Notes under the pieces: model-generated
Database searches by the model: none
Told to the model about the DNA's origin: nothing
What the model saw: the letters and a program-made list of their open reading frames with translations, nothing else
Assembly (NCBI GenBank): GCA_037444505.1
Contig: JBBIMH010000017.1
Coordinates: forward strand, 1,516 to 65,515
Length of the DNA: 64,000 bases
DNA from: Nitrospirota bacterium
GTDB lineage: Bacteria; Nitrospirota; UBA9217
Direction: 5' to 3'
Position numbers and translations under genes: made by a program
Shown here: piece after piece, positions 15,305 to 50,839 of the stretch
Layout: every line of letters begins with the position of its first letter
Numbering within the stretch: position 1 is the first letter of the stretch

Positions 15305-15775
15305 ATGAGACGATTCAGACCTGTGTTTCTCTGGACATGCCTGCTTATACTGTCCGTATATCACTTGTCTTGCAGCCGAACGACTGATGAGGACAGGATA
15401 AGGGATGAAATCAGAAAGATAGAAAAGTCGGTCGAGGACAAGAAGATCGCGCAGACGCTCAAATACATCTCGCGCGGCTACCGCGACCCGCAAGGATATG
15501 ACTATGACGGAATTAAAGGGCTTCTGCTCATGTATTTTTATCGTCATCAGCGCATATCAGTGTATATAACAGGGCTGGAGATCAGCTCCACCGGCGATTC
15601 CGCCGTTGCGACCTTCGAGGCGGTTCTTTCAGGTGCGAAGGACATCCAGTCTCCCTCGGACATCCTGCCGGAGGCAATGGGTATATACGGTTTCGAGGTG
15701 GGTTTCAAGAAGGAGGAGGGGGTATGGAAGATCACTTCTGCGAAGTGGGAGAGGCGCGCTCTATCAGCGCCTTGA
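15305..15775 (+). CDS. Hypothetical lipoprotein/secreted protein
   Basis: AAGGAG RBS and a signal peptide with Cys (LLILSVYHLSC). 156 aa, with no recognisable catalytic motif. Confidence 0.6.
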   Translation: MRRFRPVFLWTCLLILSVYHLSCSRTTDEDRIRDEIRKIEKSVEDKKIAQTLKYISRGYRDPQGYDYDGIKGLLLMYFYRHQRISVYITGLEISSTGDSAVATFEAVLSGAKDIQSPSDILPEAMGIYGFEVGFKKEEGVWKITSAKWERRALSAP

Positions 15776-16535
15776 TCTCCGGGATTGCGGTCGTAGCTGC
15801 CTTCCTGCCGCGTCTTATGAGCTCTTTCGCCTTGGACAGGTCATAGACGGCGATTCCCTTTGCATCGACGCGGATCACTTCATCGGCGAGCTTCGCCTCT
15901 TCGCGTGCATTTCTTGATGCATACAGCGCGGAGAGGTGAGCCGCGACCTTGAAGATATTGTCGAAGTCGTCGTACTCCACGGCCCTGTAGTTTACATCGA
16001 CTGCTACGACTATAGAGGCACCGAGCTCTTCCCTGACCGTCCGCACAGGTATCTGGCTCGAGACCCCGCCGTCCACGAGGAGCTTTCTGCCGATTTTGGT
16101 GGGCGTGAATATCACCGGCAGGCTGCAGCTCGCCTGGACGGCCTTCGCAATGGAGCCGGACATTATGCTCACCTTTTCGCCTGTCTTCAGATCTGTTGCG
16201 ACCGCTGCGAACGGTATGGGCATGGAAGAAAACTTCTTCACGGGAAGGTGCTCATCCATGAATTTATAGATGCCTTCGCTCGAGATGATCCCCATCTTGG
16301 GTATGGTGAGCTTGAATACATCCTTCCATCTGGACTTGAGGGCGATGCGCTTGATCTCCGAGAGGGACAGGCCAGCTGCATACAGTGCGCCGACCATGCT
16401 GCCGGCACTCGTGCCGGCGATTGCGTCTATGGGTATGCCTTCTTCCTCCATGACCTCGAGTACGCCGATATGCGCTATGCCGCGCACGACTCCGCCTGAG
16501 AGCGCAAGGCCGATGAGTGGTGACGTCGATGGCAT
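15732..16535 (-). CDS. Patatin-like phospholipase
   Basis: GGVVRG oxyanion motif, GTSAGS nucleophile elbow (GxSxG) and a DGG motif (LLVDGGVS). The start was chosen at MPSTSPLIGLALSGG. Confidence 0.85.
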   Translation of the reverse strand: MPSTSPLIGLALSGGVVRGIAHIGVLEVMEEEGIPIDAIAGTSAGSMVGALYAAGLSLSEIKRIALKSRWKDVFKLTIPKMGIISSEGIYKFMDEHLPVKKFSSMPIPFAAVATDLKTGEKVSIMSGSIAKAVQASCSLPVIFTPTKIGRKLLVDGGVSSQIPVRTVREELGASIVVAVDVNYRAVEYDDFDNIFKVAAHLSALYASRNAREEAKLADEVIRVDAKGIAVYDLSKAKELIRRGRKAATTAIPEIKALIERASPTSQK

Positions 16536-16567
16536 TTTATGCAGCGACCCGTCAGAAGTACCGGCGG

Positions 16568-17170
16568 TTATTTCGCGGAAATCTTTCTTAGGGCGTCTTT
16601 TGTATATGCAGCCAGGTCTTCGAATGCATAGAGGATGCACAGATATGTGGAAGAAGACTTCGGAGAGCACTCGCCAGTGACGAGCCTGTCTTCATGGGCT
16701 GTTGCAAATTCATTGGTCATGCGGATTACAGAGTCGCCTTCCTGCGAGGCTGCTGCGACCAATGCTGGCGTTCCGGTGACAAGGGCCTCCCCCGCCTTCT
16801 TGAGCATGTCCTTGGCCTTTGCTATCATCTGAGACGTTTCCTGATTGGCCTTGTCGCTGAATAGAAGGGCCTCTTTTATCTTGGTCCTCGTGTTGTCCGC
16901 TATCCTCTCGATGCTCGTGGCGGCCTTTTCCACGAGTGCCGGGATCGAAAGGAGCGAGCGGGCCTCGGGATCGGAGGCGGCCAATTTAGCAAGTGCAGCG
17001 GTCAGCTCGTCTTCCTTGGCGTGTATCTCGCGGCTGAGGTCCATTGCCTGGTCGAGCTGCTTCGTCATGTTTTTGGCGAATGCCTCCTCTGACAGCTCGA
17101 GCATCTGCTCCACCTTGTGCATCATGAGATACAGCCCTTTTTTTATCTCCTTGACGGTCTGCGCAGCCAT
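16568..17170 (-). CDS. Hypothetical all-helical protein (possibly PhoU/DUF47-like)
   Basis: 200 aa with helical heptad-like composition. Strong AAGGAGAG RBS before ATG 17170. The family assignment is uncertain. Confidence 0.5.
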   Translation of the reverse strand: MAAQTVKEIKKGLYLMMHKVEQMLELSEEAFAKNMTKQLDQAMDLSREIHAKEDELTAALAKLAASDPEARSLLSIPALVEKAATSIERIADNTRTKIKEALLFSDKANQETSQMIAKAKDMLKKAGEALVTGTPALVAAASQEGDSVIRMTNEFATAHEDRLVTGECSPKSSSTYLCILYAFEDLAAYTKDALRKISAK

Positions 17171-17476
17171 ATATCTCTCCTTGGTCTGTTCTGACAGCTC
17201 ACGATTTGAGCCCGTGTCCGGCGATTCGATACACAGCACTATATCAGAAAAAGCCCCTGCTTACATTTTAATTTTTTTAATATTGCTATTTTAAGGTCTT
17301 ATAGAAGCTGCATTGTATAACCGGATGAGGATTCGTTCGATTCATAGAATTGCACGGAATAAGTGTGTGAAACGATCTTCGAATGTGCCGTTGCATGCAG
17401 AAAGGCTTTTTCCTTGACATGTGCGCCATGAAGGTATAAGTTGGCCTTGTTCTAGCCGTTTTTTGCGGGGTGCGGG

Positions 17477-18742
17477 ATGCCTTTTTTCGCCAGTGAACTG
17501 TTCGTGAGCGAGGTATATAGGAAGCCTGTGCTCGACCAGACGGGCGAGGTTATAGGCAGGCTCAGGGACATCACCGTCTCTATGGGAGAGCCGTATCCTG
17601 CGATAAGCGGCCTTGTCATCGCCTCTGGAAGGAACATCTATACAATACCCTGGGAGTCTGTAAACCTCTTCAATCGAAGAGTCATCTCCATAAACGCATT
17701 GCGGCATAATCTCGTACCTTCTTCTCCGTCCGCCTCCTACATAATGATATTCAGGGACATGCTCGACAAACAGATAGTGGACATCGACGGCGCTAAGCTT
17801 GTCCGTGTCAACGACCTGAGGCTTGCGGACGTGAAGGGAAGCCTCTGCCTGGTTGCGGCGGATATAGGGCTCAGGGGGATACTGAGGCGGCTCGGCCTCG
17901 AGGCGCAGGGCGAGAGGCTCTTCTCTCTGTTCAGGATGAAACTGCCGCATAAGCTCATCGGATGGCACTATCTCCAGGCGGTGGAGCCCAAGGTCGCACG
18001 TCTTACACTCACTGTTTCGAGGCAGAAGGTGTCGCAGATGCACCCGGCGGATCTCGCCGAGATTATAAGCGAGGTCTCTTCTAAGGAGAGGGCCGCCCTG
18101 TTCGGCAGCCTCGATGTGGAGACCGCGGCTGAGGCGCTGCACGAACTCGAGCCGAGCGTACAGGCGGACATCATAGACGACATGACAAGGGAACGCGCCT
18201 CGGACATCCTGGAGCAGATGCCCCCGGACGAGGCGGCGGACGTACTCGGAGATCTGCCGAAGGAGAAGGCGGATGAGCTGATAAAGCTCATGGAAAAGGA
18301 AGAGGCTGAAGACGTACAGGAGCTACTCGAACACGAGGAAGACACGGCAGGAGGGCTCATGACCACCGAGTACCTCGCATTTCCGCCGGACATCACGGTC
18401 GAGGACGCCATAAAGGAGCTGAGGCTCGAGGCGCCTGACGTGGAGACCATATACTATCTCTATGTCGTTGACGATAATGAAAGGCCTGTGGGCGTACTCT
18501 CGCTCAAGAATCTCATACTCGCTCGGCCGCCGGATATGCTGAAGGACATCATGAAGACGCCCGTGAAGACCATTCCGCTCGATGCCGATAAGGATGATGT
18601 GGCCGAATTCATATCGAAGTACAATCTCTTGGCGGCGCCGGTGGTGGACGAGAACAATGTGCTGCGGGGTATTGTCACGGTGGACGACGTAGTGGACTTC
18701 CTCATGCCGCCTGCATCACGCAAGAAGCGCAGGAGGTTGTAG
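17477..18742 (+). CDS. Stand-alone MgtE-type cytosolic sensor protein (PRC-barrel + MgtE_N + tandem CBS), no membrane domain
   Basis: The N-terminal ~75 aa are PRC-barrel-like. An acidic MgtE_N helical region follows (HPADLAEIISEV...DEAADVLGDLPKEKADELI), then two CBS motifs. No TM segments. The stop lies 2 nt before the next gene. Confidence 0.85.
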   Translation: MPFFASELFVSEVYRKPVLDQTGEVIGRLRDITVSMGEPYPAISGLVIASGRNIYTIPWESVNLFNRRVISINALRHNLVPSSPSASYIMIFRDMLDKQIVDIDGAKLVRVNDLRLADVKGSLCLVAADIGLRGILRRLGLEAQGERLFSLFRMKLPHKLIGWHYLQAVEPKVARLTLTVSRQKVSQMHPADLAEIISEVSSKERAALFGSLDVETAAEALHELEPSVQADIIDDMTRERASDILEQMPPDEAADVLGDLPKEKADELIKLMEKEEAEDVQELLEHEEDTAGGLMTTEYLAFPPDITVEDAIKELRLEAPDVETIYYLYVVDDNERPVGVLSLKNLILARPPDMLKDIMKTPVKTIPLDADKDDVAEFISKYNLLAAPVVDENNVLRGIVTVDDVVDFLMPPASRKKRRRL

Positions 18743-18744
18743 CT

Positions 18745-20001
18745 TTGGCGGTGCTGGAGCGGATAAGGTCTTTCATAGAGCGGAGACGGTTTCTCACGTT
18801 CTTGGCGGTCATGGGGCCGGGGCTTATCGCCGGAAACGCCGGCAATGACGCAGGCGGCATCGCCACCTATTCCATTGTAGGCGCTCGGGAGGGATACGGA
18901 CTGTTGTGGGCGCTCATCCTGAACACCGTGGCCCTGGCGGTGGTGCAGGAGATGTCCGCACGTATGGGCGTGGTTACAGGCAAGGGCTTCGGAGACCTCG
19001 TGCGGGAGCGGTTCGGGGTGAGGGTCACCCTGCTTGTGATGTCGCTCTTCATATTCGCCAATCTCACCGTGACGATCGCGGAGTTCGCGGGTATCGCTGC
19101 GGCGCTCGAACTGTTCGGCGTACATAGATACATATCCATGCCGGTGGTCGCCATCATTGTCTGGTTCGTAGTGGTAAAGGGCAATTTCAAACAGGTGGAG
19201 CGCTTCCTTATCGCCATCAGCATGGTCTATCTTACATATGTCGTATCAGGCTTCCTCGCGAACCCGCCGTGGCTGGAGGTGGCCAGACAGATCGTCATGC
19301 CGAGGATCCGTATGGATGGCGGGTACATACTCCTGTTTATAACCATGGTGGGCACCACCATCACCCCGTACATGCAGTTCTACCTCCAATCGGCGATAGT
19401 GGACAAGGGCGTCCGCGTGGAGGAGTACAAATATACAAGGATGGATGTCTACGCAGGCTCTTTCATGACGGGTTTCATCGCATTTTTCATCATACTTGCC
19501 ACGGGGACGACTCTGCACCCGGCCGGGATAGAGGTGCATACCGCTGAAGAGGCCGCCCAGGCCCTGAGGCCGCTCGCCGGCGAATTCGCTTCTCAACTCT
19601 TTGCCATAGGCCTCCTGAACGCCTCGTTTCTCGCCGCGCTCGTACTTCCGCTCGCCACTGCATACGGTCTTGCCGAGGCCTTCGGTTGGGAGTCAGGCAT
19701 CAACAGGACATTCCGCGAGGCCCCCCAATTTCTGGGCATCTACACCCTTTTCATCGTAATCGGCGCCGGTGTCATCACAATCCCGGGCGCTCCGCTCATC
19801 AAGATTATGTTCCTGTCCCAGACCGTCAACGGCGTACTGCTGCCCGCGGTCCTCGTCATAATGCTGAGGCTCGTGAACGACAAGGAGTTGATGGGGGAAT
19901 ATGTGAATTCGAGGCGGATGAATATAATCACCTGGATCACCGTGGTTGTGATCATCCTGCTGGCCGTCGCCATGCTCGCGACGAGTTTTCTGGACGGATG
20001 A
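18745..20001 (+). CDS. NRAMP/SLC11-family transporter, non-canonical metal site (NRMT-like)
   Basis: 418 aa with ~11 TM and NRAMP-like topology and sequence. TM1 reads GNDAGG rather than DPGN. TM6 reads GTTITPYMQFYLQS rather than GAxxMPHNLYLHS. Confidence 0.85.
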   Translation: MAVLERIRSFIERRRFLTFLAVMGPGLIAGNAGNDAGGIATYSIVGAREGYGLLWALILNTVALAVVQEMSARMGVVTGKGFGDLVRERFGVRVTLLVMSLFIFANLTVTIAEFAGIAAALELFGVHRYISMPVVAIIVWFVVVKGNFKQVERFLIAISMVYLTYVVSGFLANPPWLEVARQIVMPRIRMDGGYILLFITMVGTTITPYMQFYLQSAIVDKGVRVEEYKYTRMDVYAGSFMTGFIAFFIILATGTTLHPAGIEVHTAEEAAQALRPLAGEFASQLFAIGLLNASFLAALVLPLATAYGLAEAFGWESGINRTFREAPQFLGIYTLFIVIGAGVITIPGAPLIKIMFLSQTVNGVLLPAVLVIMLRLVNDKELMGEYVNSRRMNIITWITVVVIILLAVAMLATSFLDG

Positions 20002-20005
20002 CAGC

Positions 20006-20707
20006 TCAGGTATCGGACGTCCCAGGCTCGTATGGTATCGGATCCTTCACGCCGGCCTCTCTGAAGCCCTTAAGCCTGAGCAGGCAGCTCTCGCATCTGC
20101 CGCAGGCTCTCTCGCTGTTACGATAGCAGCTCCATGTGAGGTGGAAGGGGGCATGGAGTTCCATGCCTTTTTTCACAATCTCGGATTTCTTAAGATGTAT
20201 GAGCGGGGTGACGATTTCTATCCGCGTCTCGGGCTTCGTTCCGGTCTCGATCGCCTTATTGAAGGCATGATAGAAGACCTCTCTGCAGTCTGGATAGCCT
20301 GAGCTGTCTTCTTCTACAGCGCCTATGAATATCTTCGTCGCTCCGATGACCTCCGCCCAGGAGGTCGCGACAGCCAGCAGGTGGGCGTTTCGGAAAGGGA
20401 CATATGTAACAGGGACTGAATGAGTCCGCAGTTCGTGGTTTTGGGCTCTCGGCTCCGGTACGGGGATGGTTTCATCGGTCAGGGCGGAACCGCCTATCTG
20501 CTTCAGATAGCGGAGGCTCAGGACGAGGCGCCTCCGGACCCCGTATAAATCCGCAATATCATTGAATGAGCGCAGCTCCCTGTCTTCGGTCCTTTGGCCG
20601 TAATTGACATGCAGAAGCGCGAGTTCGTATTTATCATTTGCAATGGCGGCGGTGACGCAACTGTCCATACCGCCGCTCAACAGGACAACGGCAAGCTCCC
20701 TCTTCAT
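20006..20707 (-). CDS. queC: 7-cyano-7-deazaguanine synthase
   Basis: N-terminal PP-loop [10 protein letters not shown] and a C-terminal Zn-binding cluster [10 protein letters not shown]. Confidence 0.93.
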
Positions 20708-20989: not shown

Positions 20990-21202
20990 TTACTCCTCCA
21001 GTGCATTTATCTCGTCCACAATCTTGTTCGGATCGATATTGTGCATCATCGAGCCGAAAGATATGGACTCCATGTTGATGCCGGGGCATGTAAAGCAGCC
21101 GTTGCCGAAGTATTTCTGGATGACCTCCTTGGCCTTCGGGTTGTCCTTGATGACCTGTCCGATTATAGAATCCTTCGTCACCTTCTTTTTCTCCGCTATC
21201 AT
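20990..21202 (-). CDS. DUF1858-type small redox protein (hybrid-cluster-protein-associated disulfide protein family)
   Basis: 70 aa: MIAEKKKVTKDSIIGQVIKDNPKAKEVIQKYFGNGCFTCPG...SFGSMMHNIDPNKIVDEINA, matching the DUF1858 pattern with a CxxC. GAGGAGG RBS 6 nt before ATG 21202. Confidence 0.75.
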   Translation of the reverse strand: MIAEKKKVTKDSIIGQVIKDNPKAKEVIQKYFGNGCFTCPGINMESISFGSMMHNIDPNKIVDEINALEE

Positions 21203-21260
21203 GGCTGACCTCCTCATTGGGTTTGTTAGCCTAAGTCTACTAGAATTTAAAGACCCGTGC

Positions 21261-21276
21261 TATGATACATATCATA
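21261..21276. promoter_or_regulatory. Candidate Crp/Fnr-family operator
   Basis: The palindrome TATGATACATATCATA has an ATGAT-N4-ATCAT core with the TTGAT-N4-ATCAA spacing of FNR-type boxes. It lies in the divergent region between the DUF1858 gene and the 21368 membrane gene, 0.5 kb from a crp/fnr-family gene. Confidence 0.4.
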
Positions 21277-21367
21277 ATGCCTTCCCGGCGGCGCATATGA
21301 GCGGGGTCATAGCATTCGGAGTGAGTATGTCTTATAATCGCATCAACATTCTACAGGAGGTGTATCC

Positions 21368-21781
21368 ATGGATAGGTTCGTGAAGGGGTTCATCGTGATG
21401 AGTATCGTGTATCTCGGTATCGCCACGGTCGTGGGAGTGCTGATGCTTTCGAGCGAGACGCTGCTACCGCTCAAGTTCGTGCATTCCCACCTCAACATGC
21501 TGGGCTGGGTCTCGATGATGATCTACGGGGTCGGCTACCATATACTGCCCAGGTTCATGGGAAGGCCGCTCTACAGTATACAACTGGGCCAGCTGCAGTT
21601 CGGCCTGGCAAATATAGGACTCGTTGGCATGCTCTTTTTCTATACCCTGAATATATATTCGCCCGCGGGCATCTACAGGGTGCTTATGGTCCTATTCGGC
21701 GCGGTAGAGGCATTGTCCGTGTTCCTGTTTTTCTATAATATGCTGATGACACTCCTATCTAAGATGGAAGAGGCGCATTGA
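21368..21781 (+). CDS. Hypothetical 4-TM membrane protein with conserved His residues
   Basis: 137 aa with an AGGAGG RBS and four hydrophobic helices. The motif HSHLNMLGWVSMMIYGVGYHILPRF is reminiscent of heme-copper-oxidase/NnrS-like helices, but the family is not established. Confidence 0.6.
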   Translation: MDRFVKGFIVMSIVYLGIATVVGVLMLSSETLLPLKFVHSHLNMLGWVSMMIYGVGYHILPRFMGRPLYSIQLGQLQFGLANIGLVGMLFFYTLNIYSPAGIYRVLMVLFGAVEALSVFLFFYNMLMTLLSKMEEAH

Positions 21782-21838
21782 GCGAATAACATGCAGAAGG
21801 ACGGCGGGCAGTCGGTCGGGCTGTCTGCCGTCCGCCGC

Positions 21839-22510
21839 CTATGACGAAAGAGAGGCCAGCCCCTCTCTGTCCTTTATGACGATCTTTCCGTCGGAGTCGG
21901 AGAGCAGGCCCTGTTTCTTGAACTTGCTGAATGTTCGGATGGAGGTCTCGACGGTGGTGCCCACCATATCGGCCACGTCCTGTTTCGTGAGGCGCATGTC
22001 TATGAGCAGGCCTTCATTCGTCTCGACGCCAACCTTGCCGGCCAGCTTCAAAAGAAGCGCGGCGATACGCGCCTCGACCCGTTCCAGGGCGATGTTCTTC
22101 AGGGACTCGTATGAGCTCTTCATGCGGTCGCCGAGCTGCAGCGCTATGCAGTACATGAGGTTGGGGAAGCGGTCTACGACGCGCATGAGATTCTTCCTCG
22201 ATATCTTGAGCACCTCTGTGTCTTCCATCGCCACCGCATTCGCGGGGTAGGGGAAGTTCTTGAGCACCGCCACTCCGCCGAATATGTCCCCTGGAGAGAT
22301 GATCTCGAGGATCACCTCCTTGCCTTCGTTCGAAAGCCTTGTGATCTTGACCTTGCCTGTAGAAACTATGTAAAACCAGTCCGGCGGGTCTCCTTCGGAG
22401 AAGATATGTTCCCTTTTTTTGTAAGAGGAGGACGTCAGATAGGCCGAGAGCTCCTTTATCTCTTCCTCCGAGAGGTTCTTGAACAGGGCGATATCCTTGA
22501 GGCCTTTCAT
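21839..22510 (-). CDS. Crp/Fnr family transcriptional regulator
   Basis: N-terminal cNMP-binding beta-barrel (FSEGDPPDWFYIVSTGKVKI) and a C-terminal HTH (TKQDVADMVGTTVETSIRTFSKF). It has no N-terminal Cys cluster, so it is not a classical FNR. Confidence 0.92.
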   Translation of the reverse strand: MKGLKDIALFKNLSEEEIKELSAYLTSSSYKKREHIFSEGDPPDWFYIVSTGKVKITRLSNEGKEVILEIISPGDIFGGVAVLKNFPYPANAVAMEDTEVLKISRKNLMRVVDRFPNLMYCIALQLGDRMKSSYESLKNIALERVEARIAALLLKLAGKVGVETNEGLLIDMRLTKQDVADMVGTTVETSIRTFSKFKKQGLLSDSDGKIVIKDREGLASLSS

Positions 22511-47234: not shown

Positions 47235-47918
47235 ATGTTTAAGAAGATCAAAAACAAAAAAGGTTTCACACTCATCGAACTGCTCATCGTGATCGCCATC
47301 ATCGCGATCCTCGCAGCCATCGCCATCCCGCAGTTCTCAGCGTATCGGGTGAAGGCATATAATGCATCAGCACAGTCAGATCTAAGAAACACAGGTGTCT
47401 CACAGGCCGCTATGGGCCAGGATTTTTCCAGTTATGGAATTACCGAGTCAGGTACTTTACCAGGCTCCGGACTTAGCGGAACAGGAGTAGTTGATGGCGC
47501 TCCACTACTTGGACCACTTGGCGGCGCCACGACGGCAATACCGGGTGCTATGCTTACAACTAATGATTTGACGGAAGCCAATGCTGTCAGAGGCATTCCT
47601 ACCGGTGTTGGAAGCAGCGTGGGCATCTTAGCGCGTGTAAATGCTATTCAATCTTCAATTGGTTCAAATACTAATGTTATTACGGCGAATGCATATACTA
47701 TGGTAACAAAGCATACACTGGGCACGCAGGCATACGGAATGGATTCTGATACTACAGCGATGTTTGTATGCACAAACGAAACATCCGCATTTCTTGGCGC
47801 TCCTATCCAGAATGCTACTACCCCCGTTACAATTCCGGTCCCCACAAATGGTGTAAACGATTTTGGAAGTGTCGCGTGCAATGGTGATGCAGCTAATCCT
47901 AACTGGGTAGCCAGGTAA
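47235..47918 (+). CDS. pilA: Type IVa pilin
   Basis: Prepilin leader MFKKIKNKKG followed by FTLIELLIVIAIIAILAAIAIPQF (the class III signal), and a C-terminal Cys pair (FVCTNE...VACNG). GGGAGG RBS upstream. Confidence 0.92.
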   Translation: MFKKIKNKKGFTLIELLIVIAIIAILAAIAIPQFSAYRVKAYNASAQSDLRNTGVSQAAMGQDFSSYGITESGTLPGSGLSGTGVVDGAPLLGPLGGATTAIPGAMLTTNDLTEANAVRGIPTGVGSSVGILARVNAIQSSIGSNTNVITANAYTMVTKHTLGTQAYGMDSDTTAMFVCTNETSAFLGAPIQNATTPVTIPVPTNGVNDFGSVACNGDAANPNWVAR

Positions 47919-47989: not shown

Positions 47990-48174
47990 GAATGGGCTGT
48001 TGAGAAAATAGTACTTTCAGACAGAGATATAGCATGGGGCGGGCGCAGATAGGGTCAGCACACCGAAAGGCATGTGATGTATAAATTTTTATTTAGCTAA
48101 CATTCACTATGATATAAATATTTTTGGTTGATATGGCCACTGGTGTGGCGGACTGAACGGAAATATGAATCGAA

Positions 48175-49020
48175 ATGATGAAAGCTTGCAACCCTATGAA
48201 CGCACTTGATAATAAAAAAAACATCTTATCTATCGCACATATAACCATTAAAGGGAGTAGAATAGAAAAAATCTATTATCTGCTTTTTTTTACAGTAGTT
48301 ATCGTTTTATTATTAACTCCATATTTTGCATCAATGTCTCCCCGACAGGGCAAACAGGTGGCGCTCGATTTTATTCTTTCTACTCAGTCTTTCACAGGTC
48401 TTATTATAGCTACTTTCGTCGGCAGCGGACTTATAGCGCGGGATGTAGATAAAAAGGTTATCTACAGCGTAATTACCAAGTCGGTTTCTCGAAGCCAATA
48501 CGTTATAGGTAGATTCTTGGGGATAGCATTAATTCTTCTTTTAGCCATCATATTGATGTCTTTTTTTGGTATCCTATCATATTATGCTACCCTCTGGATG
48601 TTTATTACTTTAGGTGATGCACCGAATTGGTATGTATATTGGTTGAATGCAATTTTTTTATACCTAAAATTGTTGATTATTGTGGCTGTAGCTTTTTTGT
48701 TTTCATCTTTTTCCACTAGTACCATATTCCCTCTTGCAGTAACTATTGGAGTCTATATTGCCGGCGCATCTGCCATAAAGGTGAAGAGTTATCTCGAAAC
48801 TCTTTCGGGTGCTAATTGGGGCATTGGTTTTAAACTCTTAGTCAATTCAGCTTTTTATTTATTTCCAAATCTATCAGCTTTTGATCTGAAGGCTCAAGCA
48901 GCCTATGGCTTGTCTGTGAACAGTCTCAATCTTATATTTGTTGCACTATATGGTTTGCTTTATATTTCTGTAATGCTGTTTGTAACAGTAGTGATCTTTA
49001 ACAGACGGGACTTGATATGA
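48175..49020 (+). CDS. ABC-2-type transporter permease (AT-rich gene)
   Basis: About six TM helices in ABC-2-like organisation. Its stop overlaps the next start (ATGA at 49017-49020). Visibly AT-rich codon usage. The start is uncertain (48175 or 48196). Confidence 0.7.
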   Translation: MMKACNPMNALDNKKNILSIAHITIKGSRIEKIYYLLFFTVVIVLLLTPYFASMSPRQGKQVALDFILSTQSFTGLIIATFVGSGLIARDVDKKVIYSVITKSVSRSQYVIGRFLGIALILLLAIILMSFFGILSYYATLWMFITLGDAPNWYVYWLNAIFLYLKLLIIVAVAFLFSSFSTSTIFPLAVTIGVYIAGASAIKVKSYLETLSGANWGIGFKLLVNSAFYLFPNLSAFDLKAQAAYGLSVNSLNLIFVALYGLLYISVMLFVTVVIFNRRDLI

Positions 49021-49838
49021 AGTTATTTCTGAATATCATTGTGCTAATAACATACATTCTGCTTATCAATCCGGTGGAAAAATTCTCCAAATCTAAGATG
49101 ACTACAGAGAGCACAACTGCTGTTCCGGATGTTGAGGTCGTCGATATATTTGCACTGGAATTCAAAAATTTGGTGAGCGACATCCTTTTTTTTGATGCGA
49201 TTACATTTATAGGGGGCAAGAAAACGTTTCGATTAGAAATGCAAGAAGGCGAGCAACTTTATTCCTTGCTGAACGCGTCATCTTTTCTTAATCCTTATAA
49301 TGTGGATCCATACTACCTCGGGCAATCCATTTTAACATGGGAAACAAAGATGTATGACCGTGCAAATATCTTATTGAAGCGTGGTATGCAGTATAGGAAC
49401 AAAGAATGGGTGTTCCCTTTTTTTATTGCATATAACTATTTTTATTTTATGAACGACACTCTGCGCGGTGCGGAGTACATGAAAGTTGCCATTGAAAGGC
49501 CTGGCTCTCCTACTCTGGTGCTTACTACATTGGCGTCGCGGCTTTATTATCGTTCCGGACGGACAGAGGTAGGGATTTTGCTTTTAAAGGATGCAGAGGC
49601 GCATGAGGCAGATGAAGGTGTAAAGAAAATTTACAGGAAAAGAATTAAGGCAATGGAAGGGGTTTTGGTGATAGAGAAAGCAATTGAGGTGTATAAAAAT
49701 AAATATTCGAGGAAACCAGCTAATATTGATATGCTTATTAAAGCAGGTTTATTAAAGAGCCGGCCGCATGATCCTTATGGCGGACAATATTACATAGATA
49801 AAGAAGGAAATGTCAAAAGCACGAGTGATTTTAGGTAG
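49017..49838 (+). CDS. Membrane-anchored hypothetical protein with GspG-like C-terminal motif
   Basis: N-terminal TM helix and a helical-repeat middle region. The C-terminus IEKAIEVYKNKYSRKPANIDMLIKAGLLKSRPHDPYGGQYYID resembles the T2SS major pseudopilin G domain pattern (Y...G.YP..L..L...YL...P.DPWG..Y.Y). Confidence 0.6.
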   Translation: MKLFLNIIVLITYILLINPVEKFSKSKMTTESTTAVPDVEVVDIFALEFKNLVSDILFFDAITFIGGKKTFRLEMQEGEQLYSLLNASSFLNPYNVDPYYLGQSILTWETKMYDRANILLKRGMQYRNKEWVFPFFIAYNYFYFMNDTLRGAEYMKVAIERPGSPTLVLTTLASRLYYRSGRTEVGILLLKDAEAHEADEGVKKIYRKRIKAMEGVLVIEKAIEVYKNKYSRKPANIDMLIKAGLLKSRPHDPYGGQYYIDKEGNVKSTSDFR

Positions 49839-49888
49839 CGTGCATATTACATAGGTATTTTGTCTAAAAGAACAAGGAAAGACTGACA

Positions 49889-50839
49889 ATGCATGTATTA
49901 AGGATTGAGAAGTTGACAAAGATTTATAAACTGGCGGGGCACACATTTACCGCCCTGTCTGCTTTGGACTTAAGCATCGAACAAGGCGAGGTGTTCGGCT
50001 TTCTCGGGCCGAACGGAGCGGGCAAAACTACGACAATAAAAATTCTTGTCAATCTGATATTCCCTACAAGCGGTAAGGCTTGGATATTTGGTGATGATTG
50101 CTCTCTGCCTGAAGCGAGGAGAAGAATAGGTTTCTTGCCTGAGATGCCAATGTTTTACGATTATCTTACATTAGAGGAATTACTGCGGTTCGGGGGTGAA
50201 ACGGCGGGTTTAAGTAAGGCGCTTATAAAAACAAGGATAGATCATCTACTCGTTCTGCTCGACATGGAGCGGGCGCGGAATTTGAGGATAAGGAAGTTTT
50301 CAAAGGGCATGCAGCAGCGGGCCGGTCTGGCCTATGCGCTTATGGGTGACCCCGATGTCTTGATCCTGGATGAGCCCATGAGCGGGCTCGATCCTATAGG
50401 CAGGAAGGATTTCGTTGATCTTATTAGAAAGCTCAAGGCCGAAGGCAAAACGATTTTCTTCAGCTCGCATGTGCTTTCAGATATTGAGAACCTATGCGAC
50501 CGCGTCGGAATCCTGGTCAAAGGTGAGCTTAAAAAGGTAGGCAATGTCTCGGAGCTGCTGAGAGCCGAGGATGGATTCCTGGTCAGGGTAAGCGGATTGG
50601 ATGGTGGAGGAAAGGAATATTTAGAGCAACTGGGCGTCCATGTCTCGGTCGATGGAAATGCGCTCTCCCTCCGTGTCACAAGGGATAAGGTCATGGATGT
50701 CATGGATATTATTAAGGCACGAAAGGCTTCGATCGCTTCGATCGATACCATGCGCAAGTCTCTCGAAGATATATTTATGGAAGTAGTTCAACAGAATCAA
50801 TCATCAGTCAGTCCTACCCCCTCTTCTCCTCATGCCTGA
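49889..50839 (+). CDS. ABC transporter ATP-binding protein
   Basis: Walker A GPNGAGKTT, signature FSKGMQQR and Walker B VLILDEP, plus a C-terminal accessory domain. Confidence 0.92.
   Translation: MHVLRIEKLTKIYKLAGHTFTALSALDLSIEQGEVFGFLGPNGAGKTTTIKILVNLIFPTSGKAWIFGDDCSLPEARRRIGFLPEMPMFYDYLTLEELLRFGGETAGLSKALIKTRIDHLLVLLDMERARNLRIRKFSKGMQQRAGLAYALMGDPDVLILDEPMSGLDPIGRKDFVDLIRKLKAEGKTIFFSSHVLSDIENLCDRVGILVKGELKKVGNVSELLRAEDGFLVRVSGLDGGGKEYLEQLGVHVSVDGNALSLRVTRDKVMDVMDIIKARKASIASIDTMRKSLEDIFMEVVQQNQSSVSPTPSSPHA

What the first reader, a model, noticed from the sequence alone, without database searches (positions are those of the whole stretch)
17477..20001. Split Mg2+-sensor/transporter pair: soluble PRC-MgtE_N-CBS protein coupled to an NRAMP-like carrier lacking the transition-metal site
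Seen directly: gene 1 contains the complete cytosolic regulatory module of MgtE (the acidic N-domain plus a CBS pair), preceded by a PRC-barrel-like domain, but has no TM domain. Its stop lies 2 nt before gene 2. Gene 2 has the NRAMP fold, but TM1 reads AGNDAGG where canonical NRAMPs have DPGN. TM6 reads GTTITPYMQFYLQS where canonical NRAMPs have GAxxMPHNLYLHS, so the Asn and the soft Met ligand are missing. Established knowledge: the MgtE N/CBS domains sense cytosolic Mg2+ and gate the channel. NRAMP-related Mg2+ transporters (NRMTs) are distinguished from Mn/Fe NRAMPs by loss of the Met and Asn ligands. Inference: this is a two-polypeptide system in which an MgtE-type Mg2+ sensor regulates an NRMT-like transporter in trans, a combination of modules from two unrelated Mg2+ transport families.
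Basis: partly seen in the sequence, partly recalled or inferred. Interest (0 to 1): 0.6.

Follow-up and report, generated by a model that had tools for sequence, protein, structure and literature searches.

The report
Known NRMT magnesium transporter with MgtE-like partner
This is a Nitrospirota copy of an operon first described in 2014, in which an NRAMP-related Mg2+/Mn2+ transporter sits next to a soluble protein derived from the Mg2+-sensing part of the MgtE channel; the pairing is real and ancient, but what the partner does is still untested.

Summary
Gene 1 (17477-18742) is a soluble PRC + MgtE_N + 2xCBS protein. Gene 2 (18745-20001) is a full-length SLC11-fold carrier that starts 2 nt after gene 1's stop.

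Gene 2 is a clear NRMT. It matches the solved Eggerthella NRMT at 1e-114, against about 1e-27 for MntH, and keeps all NRMT binding-site residues.

The pairing is not new. Shin et al. 2014 (PLoS Genet) reported that most NrmT genes sit beside an MgtE-cytoplasmic-domain gene and proposed feedback regulation.

I confirmed the linkage in both directions and across about ten phyla: 66/80, 68/72 and 78/80 loci.

New details:
- The partner has a second, cryptic PRC-barrel with an invariant RR motif.
- It keeps the MgtE N/CBS-interface Mg2+ ligands.
- It lacks the plug helix and the ATP-site Phe, and ends in a basic tail.
- This copy has no M-box riboswitch.

There is no direct evidence of a physical complex: no natural fusions and no co-variation.

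Best reading: an in-trans Mg2+ feedback sensor for an uncoupled Mg2+/Mn2+ carrier (about 0.5). Modest interest.

The parts
17240..17476 (+). Intergenic leader and promoter region shared with the divergent PhoU-like gene; no riboswitch
   Evidence: There is no Rfam match at the gathering threshold in the window, and no M-box even at E<=1 in 16400-20200. By eye, TTGACA at 17414-17419 and TAAGTT at 17437-17442 (17-nt spacer) could be a weak sigma-70 promoter. The consensus scan did not flag it, so this is inference only.
17477..18742 (+). Gene 1: soluble NRMT-associated MgtE-like protein (421 aa), PRC1 - PRC2 - MgtE_N - CBS pair - basic tail
   Evidence: ORF. Pfam PRC, MgtE_N and CBS. T. thermophilus MgtE cytosolic domain 2YVY at E 6e-42. 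No TM segment. More than 7,900 database homologues, and all 120 listed share this architecture.
17495..17686 (+). PRC-barrel 1 (residues 7-70)
   Evidence: Pfam PF05239, E 1.6e-7, 31.7 bits against a cut-off of 21.2. The AF2 model shows a beta-barrel at pLDDT about 81-93.
17747..17980 (+). Cryptic PRC-barrel 2 (residues about 91-168) with a two-helix insertion (132-151) carrying the invariant R137-R138 (LRRLG in gene 1; consensus GxLRRLG). It holds a dense cluster of the family's near-invariant positions and is net +8.
   Evidence: Invariant positions D97 Q99 D102 G105 R110 V111 N112 D113 R137 R138 W163. Sub-threshold PRC hits in 7 of 10 members, with PRC as the only family hit. hhalign of the middle region against PRC1 gives E 8.8e-5, probability 60%. 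In the AF2 model, strands 99-129 and 160-168 mirror PRC1, with helices 132-151 inserted, at pLDDT about 82-88. Charge.
18038..18343 (+). MgtE_N domain (residues 188-289), acidic (net -24), carrying E219, D251 and D255, which correspond to TtMgtE E59 (Mg7), D91 (Mg4) and D95 (Mg6)
   Evidence: Pfam. Alignment to 2YVY. Ligand identities from PMC5882242. Conservation: D251 in 62/63, D255 in 63/63, E219 is E or D in 60/63.
18359..18703 (+). CBS pair (residues about 295-409) with D404 (TtMgtE D247, Mg4) invariant. The Mg5 site is degenerate (N383, D407). The ATP-site residues are not kept (K344, N345, K360, L384).
   Evidence: ATP-site residues from PMC5529423. Foldseek matches to MgtE cytosolic domains at E about 1e-19 to 1e-20.
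18719..18739 (+). Basic C-terminal tail RKKRRRL (residues 415-421), in the place of the acidic MgtE plug helix
   Evidence: Sequence. The net charge of the last 12 residues is +5.9 in Nitrospirota orthologues and averages +2.9 in distant ones.
18731..18736 (+). Shine-Dalgarno AGGAGG for gene 2, inside the end of gene 1 (translational coupling)
   Evidence: It lies 8 nt upstream of the TTG at 18745, and the gene 1 stop is at 18740-18742.
18745..20001 (+). Gene 2: NRMT (NRAMP-related Mg2+ transporter), 418 aa, about 11 TM segments
   Evidence: Pfam Nramp, E 2e-95. PDB 7QIA EleNRMT at E 1.1e-114 (387 bits), against 102 bits or less for MntH/DMT. 46% identity to EleNRMT. Hydropathy.
18832..18858 (+). 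TM1 metal-site motif GNAGNDAGG (D35, G38 correspond to EleNRMT D55, G58; canonical NRAMP has DPGN)
   Evidence: D and G are present in all 125 NRMTs examined.
19351..19392 (+). TM6 metal-site motif GTTITPYMQFYLQS. T204 corresponds to EleNRMT T224. T207 replaces the NRAMP Met. Y209 and L214 replace the NRAMP histidines.

Best explanation
The locus is a two-gene, translationally coupled operon of a type already described.

Gene 2 is an NRMT. It is an SLC11-fold carrier whose enlarged D-A-G-G / T-T-x-T site takes largely hydrated Mg2+, and also Mn2+, without H+ coupling.

Gene 1 is the family's conserved soluble partner. It has two PRC-barrels followed by an MgtE-type N domain and a CBS pair.

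Proposed mechanism (inferred, not shown). When cytosolic Mg2+ rises, it bridges the acidic N domain to the CBS pair through the conserved Mg4, Mg6 and Mg7-type carboxylates (E219, D251, D255, D404), as it does in MgtE. This compacts the sensor. The PRC-barrels and the basic tail, which replace the MgtE plug helix, then dock on the conserved cytoplasmic face of the NRMT and slow or block transport. That would give feedback control to a carrier that is otherwise driven only by the membrane potential and the ion gradient.

This Nitrospirota copy has no M-box riboswitch, so this would be its only Mg2+-responsive control.
For: Identity (shown):
- Gene 2 matches EleNRMT at 1e-114, against about 1e-27 for MntH.
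- It keeps D35, G38, E113, T204 and Q359, and lacks the alpha6b histidines.
- EleNRMT transports Mg2+ and Mn2+, not Ca2+, and is not H+-coupled (PMC8806188).
- Gene 1 matches the MgtE cytosolic domain at 6e-42 and Foldseek gives about 1e-19 to 1e-20.

Linkage (shown):
- 66/80 NRMT loci have a gene-1 orthologue next door; in 65 it lies directly upstream on the same strand and in L054 downstream (63 give a full-length ORF).
- 68/72 informative loci found through the partner-specific N-terminal motif have an adjacent NRMT.
- 78/80 loci of the EleNRMT clade have the partner.
- The loci span Nitrospirota, Bacillota, Acidobacteriota, Chloroflexota, Desulfobacterota/Geobacterales, Actinomycetota, Omnitrophota, Saganbacteria, Methylomirabilota and a Methanosarcinales MAG.
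- An SD lies inside gene 1 and the gap is 2 nt.

Sensor kept (shown by sequence): D251 in 62/63, D255 in 63/63, D404 in 63/63, and E219 is E or D in 60/63. These are the residues whose mutation stops Mg2+-dependent closure of MgtE (PMC5882242).

Link to Mg2+: an M-box riboswitch lies upstream of the partner gene in 9/17 diverse loci.

The same hypothesis was raised by Shin et al. 2014.

The partner is not needed for transport as such: EleNRMT and the Clostridium NrmTs work alone. This fits a regulatory role.
Against: - No physical interaction has been shown.
- No partner-NRMT fusion occurs among the 150 best NRMT representatives; the longest is 562 aa.
- In one syntenic Nitrospirota locus the NRMT is either about 77% or about 53% identical to gene 2, yet none of the 421 partner positions tracks this.
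- Co-expression of the A. capsulatum pair in B. subtilis did not change Mg2+ rescue, and that transporter rescued Mn2+ uptake (PMC4072509).
- 14 of 68 linked loci have the NRMT convergent rather than co-transcribed, and 4 partners are orphans.
- The plug helix, which is the actual gate-closing element of MgtE, is missing.
- The AF2 domain arrangement is uncertain, pTM 0.42.
Confidence: 0.5

Rival explanations
1. The architecture is the same, but in this lineage the physiological substrate and signal is Mn2+ (or another divalent ion) rather than Mg2+. The partner would then sense that ion.
For: The A. capsulatum NrmT-like protein has an adjacent partner and no M-box, and it rescued Mn2+ but only weakly Mg2+ uptake (PMC4072509). 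EleNRMT also transports Mn2+. The window has no M-box.
Against: All residues shown to matter for Mg2+ in EleNRMT are present (T204, G38, D35, Q359). The sensor keeps the MgtE Mg2+ carboxylates. Orthologous operons in Bacillota and Geobacterales are under M-box control.
Confidence: 0.2
2. The partner is a cytosolic metal chaperone or buffer. It accepts ions released by the NRMT rather than gating it.
For: Shin et al. offered this as an alternative. The N and CBS regions are very acidic, net -36. The lack of co-variation with the NRMT fits a loose or transient contact.
Against: Free Mg2+ is millimolar, so a stoichiometric chaperone is hard to justify. The conserved residues are the low-affinity inter-domain bridging sites of a conformational sensor. 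The PRC2 module is conserved far more strongly than a buffer would need.
Confidence: 0.1
3. The partner is a free-standing Mg2+-responsive effector. Its basic tandem PRC-barrels act on a different target, for example ribosomes or RNA as in the PRC-barrel protein RimM, and it is merely co-expressed with a Mg2+ importer.
For: Orphan partner genes occur without a nearby NRMT. Convergent arrangements exist. There is no co-variation with the NRMT type and there are no fusions. PRC2 and the tail are basic. From general knowledge, PRC-barrels occur in RNA-metabolism proteins.
Against: Adjacency to an NRMT holds in 94% of informative loci across phyla. In the listed hits of the N-terminal-module search, no Pfam domain other than PRC, MgtE_N and the overlapping FliG_M hit appears alongside the module; many hits are partial and a few have no Pfam annotation. 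PRC-barrels also cap membrane proteins, as in the reaction-centre H subunit (general knowledge).
Confidence: 0.12
4. Gene 1 is a decaying remnant of an MgtE gene and has no function.
For: It lacks the TM domain and scores below the NCBIfam mgtE cut-off (202.5 against 232.75).
Against: Intact orthologues of about 410-425 aa occur across about ten phyla, with 27 invariant positions in the 46-sequence alignment A1 and extra conserved domains that MgtE does not have.
Confidence: 0.02

Closest known systems
mgtE-like fragment + nrmT operon (Shin et al. 2014, PLoS Genet; C. acetobutylicum Ca_c0685 operon, A. capsulatum Acp2976/Acp2977)
   Same: The gene pair and order are the same: a soluble homologue of the MgtE cytoplasmic domain lies immediately upstream of an NRAMP-related transporter. 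The same feedback hypothesis was proposed there.
   Different: This copy has no M-box. It is a single unsplit partner gene, whereas the Ca_c0685 partner is split. The paper does not mention the PRC-barrels. The tandem-PRC module, the pattern of kept and lost MgtE sites and the basic tail are described here.
EleNRMT (Eggerthella lenta NRMT; PDB 7QIA/7QIC; Ramanadane et al. 2022)
   Same: Same clade: E 1e-114 and 46% identity. The TM1 AGNDAGG motif is identical, and T224, Q379, D55, G58 and E133 are all conserved. By homology it should transport Mg2+ and Mn2+ without H+ coupling.
   Different: The position of the NRAMP Met is Thr here and Ala in EleNRMT. The alpha6b positions are Y/L here and W/N there. 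EleNRMT was studied without its operon partner, although 78/80 loci of its clade encode one.
MgtE Mg2+ channel (T. thermophilus; 2YVX/2ZY9)
   Same: The N domain and CBS pair are homologous (6e-42). The carboxylates of the Mg4, Mg6 and Mg7 sites, which clamp the N domain to the CBS pair, are conserved.
   Different: There is no 5-TM pore domain and no plug helix, so the Mg2 and Mg3 ligands are absent. The Mg5 site is degenerate. The ATP-binding Phe227 is Leu. There are two extra N-terminal PRC-barrels. Gene 1 is not an MgtE.
Soluble regulatory subunits that gate transporters in trans (e.g. KtrA/TrkA RCK rings on KtrB/TrkH) and CBS-regulated Mg2+ transporters (CorC/CNNM)
   Same: The logic is analogous: a cytosolic ligand-sensing module controls a membrane transporter. 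CBS pairs serve as the regulatory element of Mg2+ transporters (Foldseek hits to CorC/CorB CBS domains). The KtrA/TrkA comparison rests on general knowledge.
   Different: The folds and families are unrelated. Here the sensor comes from a channel family (MgtE) and the target is a LeuT-fold carrier. No complex has been demonstrated.
PRC-barrel domain (PF05239; reaction-centre H subunit, RimM, YlmC/YmxH, archaeal PRC-barrel proteins such as 8QZO)
   Same: PRC1 passes the Pfam threshold. PRC2 is a divergent copy.
   Different: No solved structure or paper in the searched library combines PRC-barrels with MgtE_N-CBS. PRC2 carries a family-specific helical insertion with an invariant RR.

Membership tests
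NRMT (NRAMP-related Mg2+ transporters, SLC11 outgroup clade) | SLC11/NRAMP fold over the full length | tested here: met
   Pfam PF01566, model positions 1-357 of 357, E 2e-95. About 11 hydrophobic segments.
NRMT (NRAMP-related Mg2+ transporters, SLC11 outgroup clade) | Closer to a characterised NRMT than to MntH/DMT clades | tested here: met
   387 bits to EleNRMT 7QIA, against 102 bits or less to any MntH, DMT, NRAT or human NRAMP chain. No formal tree was built; the score gap is decisive.
NRMT (NRAMP-related Mg2+ transporters, SLC11 outgroup clade) | TM1 D-A-G-G instead of D-P-G-N (Asn replaced by Gly) | tested here: met
   D35-A36-G37-G38. D, A and the final G are present in all 125 NRMTs examined.
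NRMT (NRAMP-related Mg2+ transporters, SLC11 outgroup clade) | TM6 Thr in place of the NRAMP Ala (EleNRMT T224, needed for Mg2+), and the Met ligand replaced by a small residue | tested here: met
   T204 is present. The Met position is T207; across the family it is T or A.
NRMT (NRAMP-related Mg2+ transporters, SLC11 outgroup clade) | Alpha10 Gln (EleNRMT Q379) kept; H+-pathway histidines on alpha6b lost | tested here: met
   Q359 is present. The positions of the NRAMP histidines are Y209 and L214. The alpha3 and alpha9 pathway residues were not mapped.
NRMT (NRAMP-related Mg2+ transporters, SLC11 outgroup clade) | Transports Mg2+ (and Mn2+) without H+ coupling | not testable with these tools
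   Inferred from EleNRMT and the C. acetobutylicum NrmTs. The A. capsulatum relative favoured Mn2+.
MgtE channel (TIGR00400) | C-terminal 5-TM pore domain with the Mg1 Asp (D432) | tested here: not met
   Gene 1 ends right after CBS2. It has no hydrophobic segment. NCBIfam mgtE matches only model positions 23-252 of 450 and scores 202.5, below the 232.75 cut-off.
MgtE channel (TIGR00400) | N domain + CBS pair with inter-domain Mg2+ carboxylates | tested here: met
   E219, D251, D255 and D404 are conserved. The Mg5 site is degenerate and the plug-helix sites are absent.
NrmT-associated MgtE-like protein (Shin et al. 2014) | Soluble protein homologous to the MgtE N-terminal cytoplasmic domain | tested here: met
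NrmT-associated MgtE-like protein (Shin et al. 2014) | Encoded immediately next to an nrmT gene | tested here: met
   A 2-nt gap in the window. The linkage holds in 66/80, 68/72 and 78/80 loci.
NrmT-associated MgtE-like protein (Shin et al. 2014) | Operon under an M-box riboswitch (frequent, not universal) | tested here: not met
   None in the window. Present in 9/17 diverse orthologous loci. This is not a defining feature: A. capsulatum also lacks it.

The most novel reading that the evidence does not exclude
The tandem-PRC / MgtE_N / CBS protein may not be a gate of the NRMT at all. It could be an ancient, free-standing cytosolic Mg2+ sensor whose basic PRC-barrel module acts on another target, such as ribosomes, RNA or another membrane complex, with the importer merely co-expressed. 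That would make it a new class of soluble bacterial Mg2+-responsive effector. The evidence does not exclude this: there is no co-variation with swapped NRMT types, there are no fusions, and orphan and convergent arrangements exist.
Probability: 0.12. Interest if true: 0.65.

Novelty: new member of a known kind. Interest (0 to 1): 0.3.

Why it matters
NRMTs are the fourth class of bacterial Mg2+ importer, and unlike CorA and MgtE they have no built-in cytosolic sensor.

If the conserved partner supplies that sensor in trans, it would be the first case of a LeuT-fold carrier regulated by a module borrowed from an unrelated channel family. It would also explain how an uncoupled Mg2+ carrier avoids overloading the cell.

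The question has been open since 2014. The only biochemical and structural work on an NRMT was done without the partner, even though that organism's clade encodes one.

The details found here give concrete mutational targets:
- the tandem PRC-barrels and the invariant RR insertion;
- which MgtE Mg2+ sites are kept and which are lost;
- the basic tail that replaces the plug helix.

As a discovery in this window, however, it is a further orthologue of a known operon.

Tried and rejected
1. M-box or other riboswitch in the leader: none at the gathering threshold or at E<=1.
3. Structure prediction with a shallow alignment of close homologues: poor, pLDDT 66, with the middle region below 50. A deeper alignment gave pLDDT 78 but pTM 0.42, so the domain packing is not interpretable.
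5. Rosetta-stone fusions of partner and NRMT: none among the 150 best NRMT representatives. In the listed hits of the N-terminal-module search, no Pfam domain other than PRC, MgtE_N and the overlapping FliG_M hit appears alongside the module; many hits are partial and a few have no Pfam annotation.
6. Co-variation test using the natural swap of NRMT types in Nitrospirota: 0 discriminating partner positions.
7. NRMT cytoplasmic loops as partner-specific docking sites: loops 2-3 and 8-9 are conserved, but equally so in partner-less NRMTs.
8. The PhoU-like neighbour as a functional partner: it is conserved only within the close Nitrospirota clade, which is ordinary synteny.
9. Alternative transporter next to orphan partner genes: none. 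The neighbours are a menaquinone-biosynthesis gene and a cupin gene.
10. A programmed -1 frameshift fusing the two genes: rejected. There is no slippery site at the junction, and the spacing in relatives varies from about -15 to more than 500 nt.
11. RNA-seq support for co-transcription: only DNA runs from subsurface and hot-spring metagenomes hold the locus.
12. Profile search of the N-terminal module against PDB sequences: only marginal PRC-barrel hits.
13. Promoter and terminator scans: at chance level.
Full report
OBSERVATION

Gene 1 is 17477..18742 (+), 421 aa. Gene 2 is 18745..20001 (+), 418 aa, with a TTG start.

Pfam finds four things in gene 1: a PRC-barrel (residues 7-70, E 1.6e-7, above the gathering score), MgtE_N (188-289, 5e-30), two CBS domains (3.6e-20), and nothing membrane-like. 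The maximum 19-residue hydropathy is 1.26, so there is no TM segment.

Gene 2 matches the Pfam Nramp model end to end (E 2e-95).

Gene 1's TAG stop (18740-18742) lies 2 nt before gene 2's TTG. A perfect AGGAGG sits inside the end of gene 1, 8 nt before that TTG. The two genes are therefore almost certainly co-translated.

The pair is flanked by genes on the other strand: a PhoU-like gene (divergent) and queC (convergent). It is a self-contained bicistron.

The quoted motifs AGNDAGG and GTTITPYMQFYLQS are present.

The window belongs to an uncultured Nitrospirota lineage. The best related loci are 75-80% identical, and the sequence is held by a subsurface metagenome.

WHAT GENE 2 IS

Against all PDB sequences, gene 2 hits the Eggerthella lenta NRMT (7QIA) at E 1.1e-114 (387 bits). 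The best canonical MntH/DMT chains reach only about 100 bits, and the plant NRAT and human NRAMPs score far less.

Residues that Ramanadane et al. 2022 showed to define and operate the NRMT site are all present:

| EleNRMT | Gene 2 |
|---|---|
| D55 | D35 |
| G58 | G38 |
| E133 | E113 |
| T224 | T204 |
| Q379 | Q359 |

The NRAMP Met position is T207. The two alpha6b histidines of proton-coupled NRAMPs are Y209 and L214.

That test fails, so gene 2 is an NRMT. By homology it should carry Mg2+ and Mn2+, not Ca2+, without H+ coupling (PMC8806188). This is inference, not shown for this protein.

WHAT GENE 1 IS

Residues 181-414 align with the T. thermophilus MgtE cytosolic domain (2YVY, E 6e-42). 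The AF2 model's C-terminal half matches MgtE cytosolic-domain structures by Foldseek at about 1e-19 to 1e-20.

It is not an MgtE. It has no pore domain, and it scores below the NCBIfam mgtE cut-off.

I mapped the published MgtE ligands (PMC5882242; PMC5529423) onto 63 orthologues from many phyla:

| TtMgtE site | Gene 1 | Status across the 63 orthologues |
|---|---|---|
| Mg4: D91 / D247 | D251 / D404 | 62/63 and 63/63 |
| Mg6: D95 | D255 | 63/63 |
| Mg7: E59 | E219 | E or D in 60/63 |
| Mg5: D226 / D250 | N383 / D407 | Degenerate: Asn in 51/63; second position variable |
| Mg2, Mg3: E258, D259 (plug helix) | none | The protein ends just after CBS2 |
| ATP site: F227 (adenine stacking) | L384 | Leu in 59/63; R187, D188 and N203 also not kept |

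So the carboxylates that clamp the N domain to the CBS pair are kept. The plug helix is replaced by a basic tail, RKKRRRL. Its net charge over the last 12 residues is about +6 in Nitrospirota and about +3 on average elsewhere.

A SECOND, UNANNOTATED PRC-BARREL

Residues 76-185 have no Pfam hit in the window protein. Yet they are as conserved as the MgtE_N and CBS domains and hold a dense cluster of the family's near-invariant positions: D97 Q99 D102 G105 R110 V111 N112 D113 R137 R138 W163 are invariant across phyla.

Three lines of evidence point to a second PRC-barrel:
- Seven of ten family members give a sub-threshold PRC hit there, with PRC as the only family hit.
- hhalign of this region against PRC1 gives E 8.8e-5 and 60% probability.
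- With a deep alignment, AF2 (mean pLDDT 78, this region about 82-88) builds a second beta-barrel that mirrors PRC1. A two-helix insertion (132-151) carries the invariant RR (LRRLG in gene 1; consensus GxLRRLG).

The first, shallow-alignment model was uninformative. pTM is 0.42, so I do not interpret the inter-domain packing.

PRC2 is net +8 and the tail +6. MgtE_N is -24 and the CBS pair -12.

No solved structure and no paper in the searched library combines PRC-barrels with MgtE_N-CBS.

LINKAGE

From the NRMT side, 66 of the 80 best NRMT loci in one-genome-per-species contigs have a gene-1 orthologue that includes the PRC region. In 65 it lies directly upstream on the same strand, and in one (L054) downstream. 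63 of these give a full-length ORF. The 14 loci without it are mostly Clostridium-type paralogues.

From the partner side, I searched with the partner-specific N-terminal profile (motif DKQIVD). Of 72 loci with enough downstream sequence, 68 have an adjacent NRMT: 54 co-directional and 14 convergent. The convergent case was verified in L120 and L130. The four exceptions are orphans in one Thermodesulfovibrionales group, lying between a menaquinone-biosynthesis gene and a cupin gene.

In the clade of the structurally characterised EleNRMT, 78 of 80 loci carry the partner, and the other two are cut by contig ends.

These sets are each a 'best 80' by similarity and overlap in part. The fractions are descriptive, not independent samples.

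An M-box riboswitch precedes the partner gene in 9 of 17 diverse linked loci (Bacillota, Geobacterales). It is present in 1 of 14 partner-less loci and absent from the window.

WHAT IS ALREADY KNOWN

Shin et al. 2014 (PMC4072509) named NrmT and reported the following:
- 'Most group members' have an adjacent gene homologous to the MgtE N-terminal cytoplasmic domain. It is split in two in the C. acetobutylicum Ca_c0685 operon.
- They speculated that it provides cytoplasmic feedback regulation or a chaperone function.
- The partner was not needed for complementation.
- Co-expression of the A. capsulatum pair changed nothing, and that transporter rescued Mn2+ uptake.

They do not mention PRC-barrels. 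Later SLC11 work (Ramanadane 2022; Cellier 2022) does not discuss the partner at all.

MECHANISM

Shown:
- The identity of both proteins.
- Ancient two-way linkage.
- Translational coupling in this copy.
- Retention of the N/CBS clamp carboxylates.
- M-box control of orthologous operons.

Inferred:
- Mg2+ compacts the sensor as it does in MgtE.
- The PRC-barrels and the basic tail dock on the NRMT's cytoplasmic face to throttle a carrier that, being uncoupled, needs feedback control.

Evidence that weakens the inference:
- No fusions among the 150 best NRMT representatives.
- Within one syntenic Nitrospirota locus the NRMT is either about 77% or about 53% identical to gene 2, while the partner stays about 75% identical. 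No partner position tracks the change.
- Conserved cytoplasmic NRMT loops exist, but they are equally conserved in partner-less NRMTs.
- The negative B. subtilis co-expression result.

I put the gating model at about 0.5. The rivals are a Mn2+-centred version, a chaperone or buffer role, and action on another target through the PRC-barrels.

VERDICT

This is a new (Nitrospirota, riboswitch-less) member of a known operon type. The useful additions are the fuller anatomy of the partner, the quantitative linkage, and the fact that the EleNRMT clade encodes the partner. Interest is modest (0.3).

Noticed in passing
L081-L084, L091, L098, L101 versus L001-L028 (same synteny as window 15732-20707): In the same patatin / PhoU-like / partner / NRMT / queC locus of related Nitrospirota, the NRMT is either about 77% or only about 53% identical to gene 2. 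The partner stays about 75% identical throughout, and no partner position tracks the swap. It looks like replacement of the transporter gene alone.
   Followed up: partly
L116, L120, L122-L124, L126-L128, L130, L131, L133, L135, L140, L144: In Deltaproteobacteria-type, Deferrimicrobiaceae and Actinomycetota MAGs the partner and the NRMT are convergent (tail to tail), with stops about 4 nt apart in L120 and L130. Adjacency is kept without co-transcription.
   Followed up: partly
L112, L118, L119, L139: One Thermodesulfovibrionales group has orphan partner genes of full architecture with no NRMT within 0.8-3.3 kb. In L118 and L139 they lie between a menaquinone-biosynthesis (VitK2_biosynth) gene and a small cupin gene. 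Whether an NRMT lies elsewhere in these genomes was not checked.
   Followed up: partly
P0146-P0148, P0173, P0176, P0191, P0200, P0240: These proteins are only 230-320 aa (PRC with or without MgtE_N, no CBS) and sit on long contigs of 0.13-2.9 Mb. They are probably true split partner genes, as reported for C. acetobutylicum, rather than contig-end fragments.
   Followed up: no
window 16568-17239 (-): A PhoU-domain protein of 223 aa is transcribed divergently from the pair. Its listed ORF overlaps the end of the patatin-like gene (15732-16670) by about 100 nt, so its true start is probably further downstream. It is a conserved neighbour only within the close Nitrospirota clade.
   Followed up: partly
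window 48001-50000: G+C drops sharply to 0.38, against about 0.53 elsewhere. The dip covers an ABC-2 type permease gene (48175-49020) and an ORF with no Pfam match (49017-49838); an ABC ATPase gene follows at 49889-50839 and a gene with a type IV pilin-like N-methylation motif lies upstream at 47235-47918. Possibly a horizontally acquired segment.
   Followed up: no
window 20990-22510: A small cluster: a DUF1858 protein (-), a 137-aa membrane protein with weak similarity to a COX1 fragment (+), and a Crp/Fnr-family regulator (-). Possibly a redox or gas-sensing unit, unrelated to the finding.
   Followed up: no
L035 3606-3771: One partner-less Clostridium NRMT paralogue has an M-box directly upstream of the transporter, while 13 other partner-less loci have none. 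Riboswitch control and partner control are not simply alternatives.
   Followed up: no
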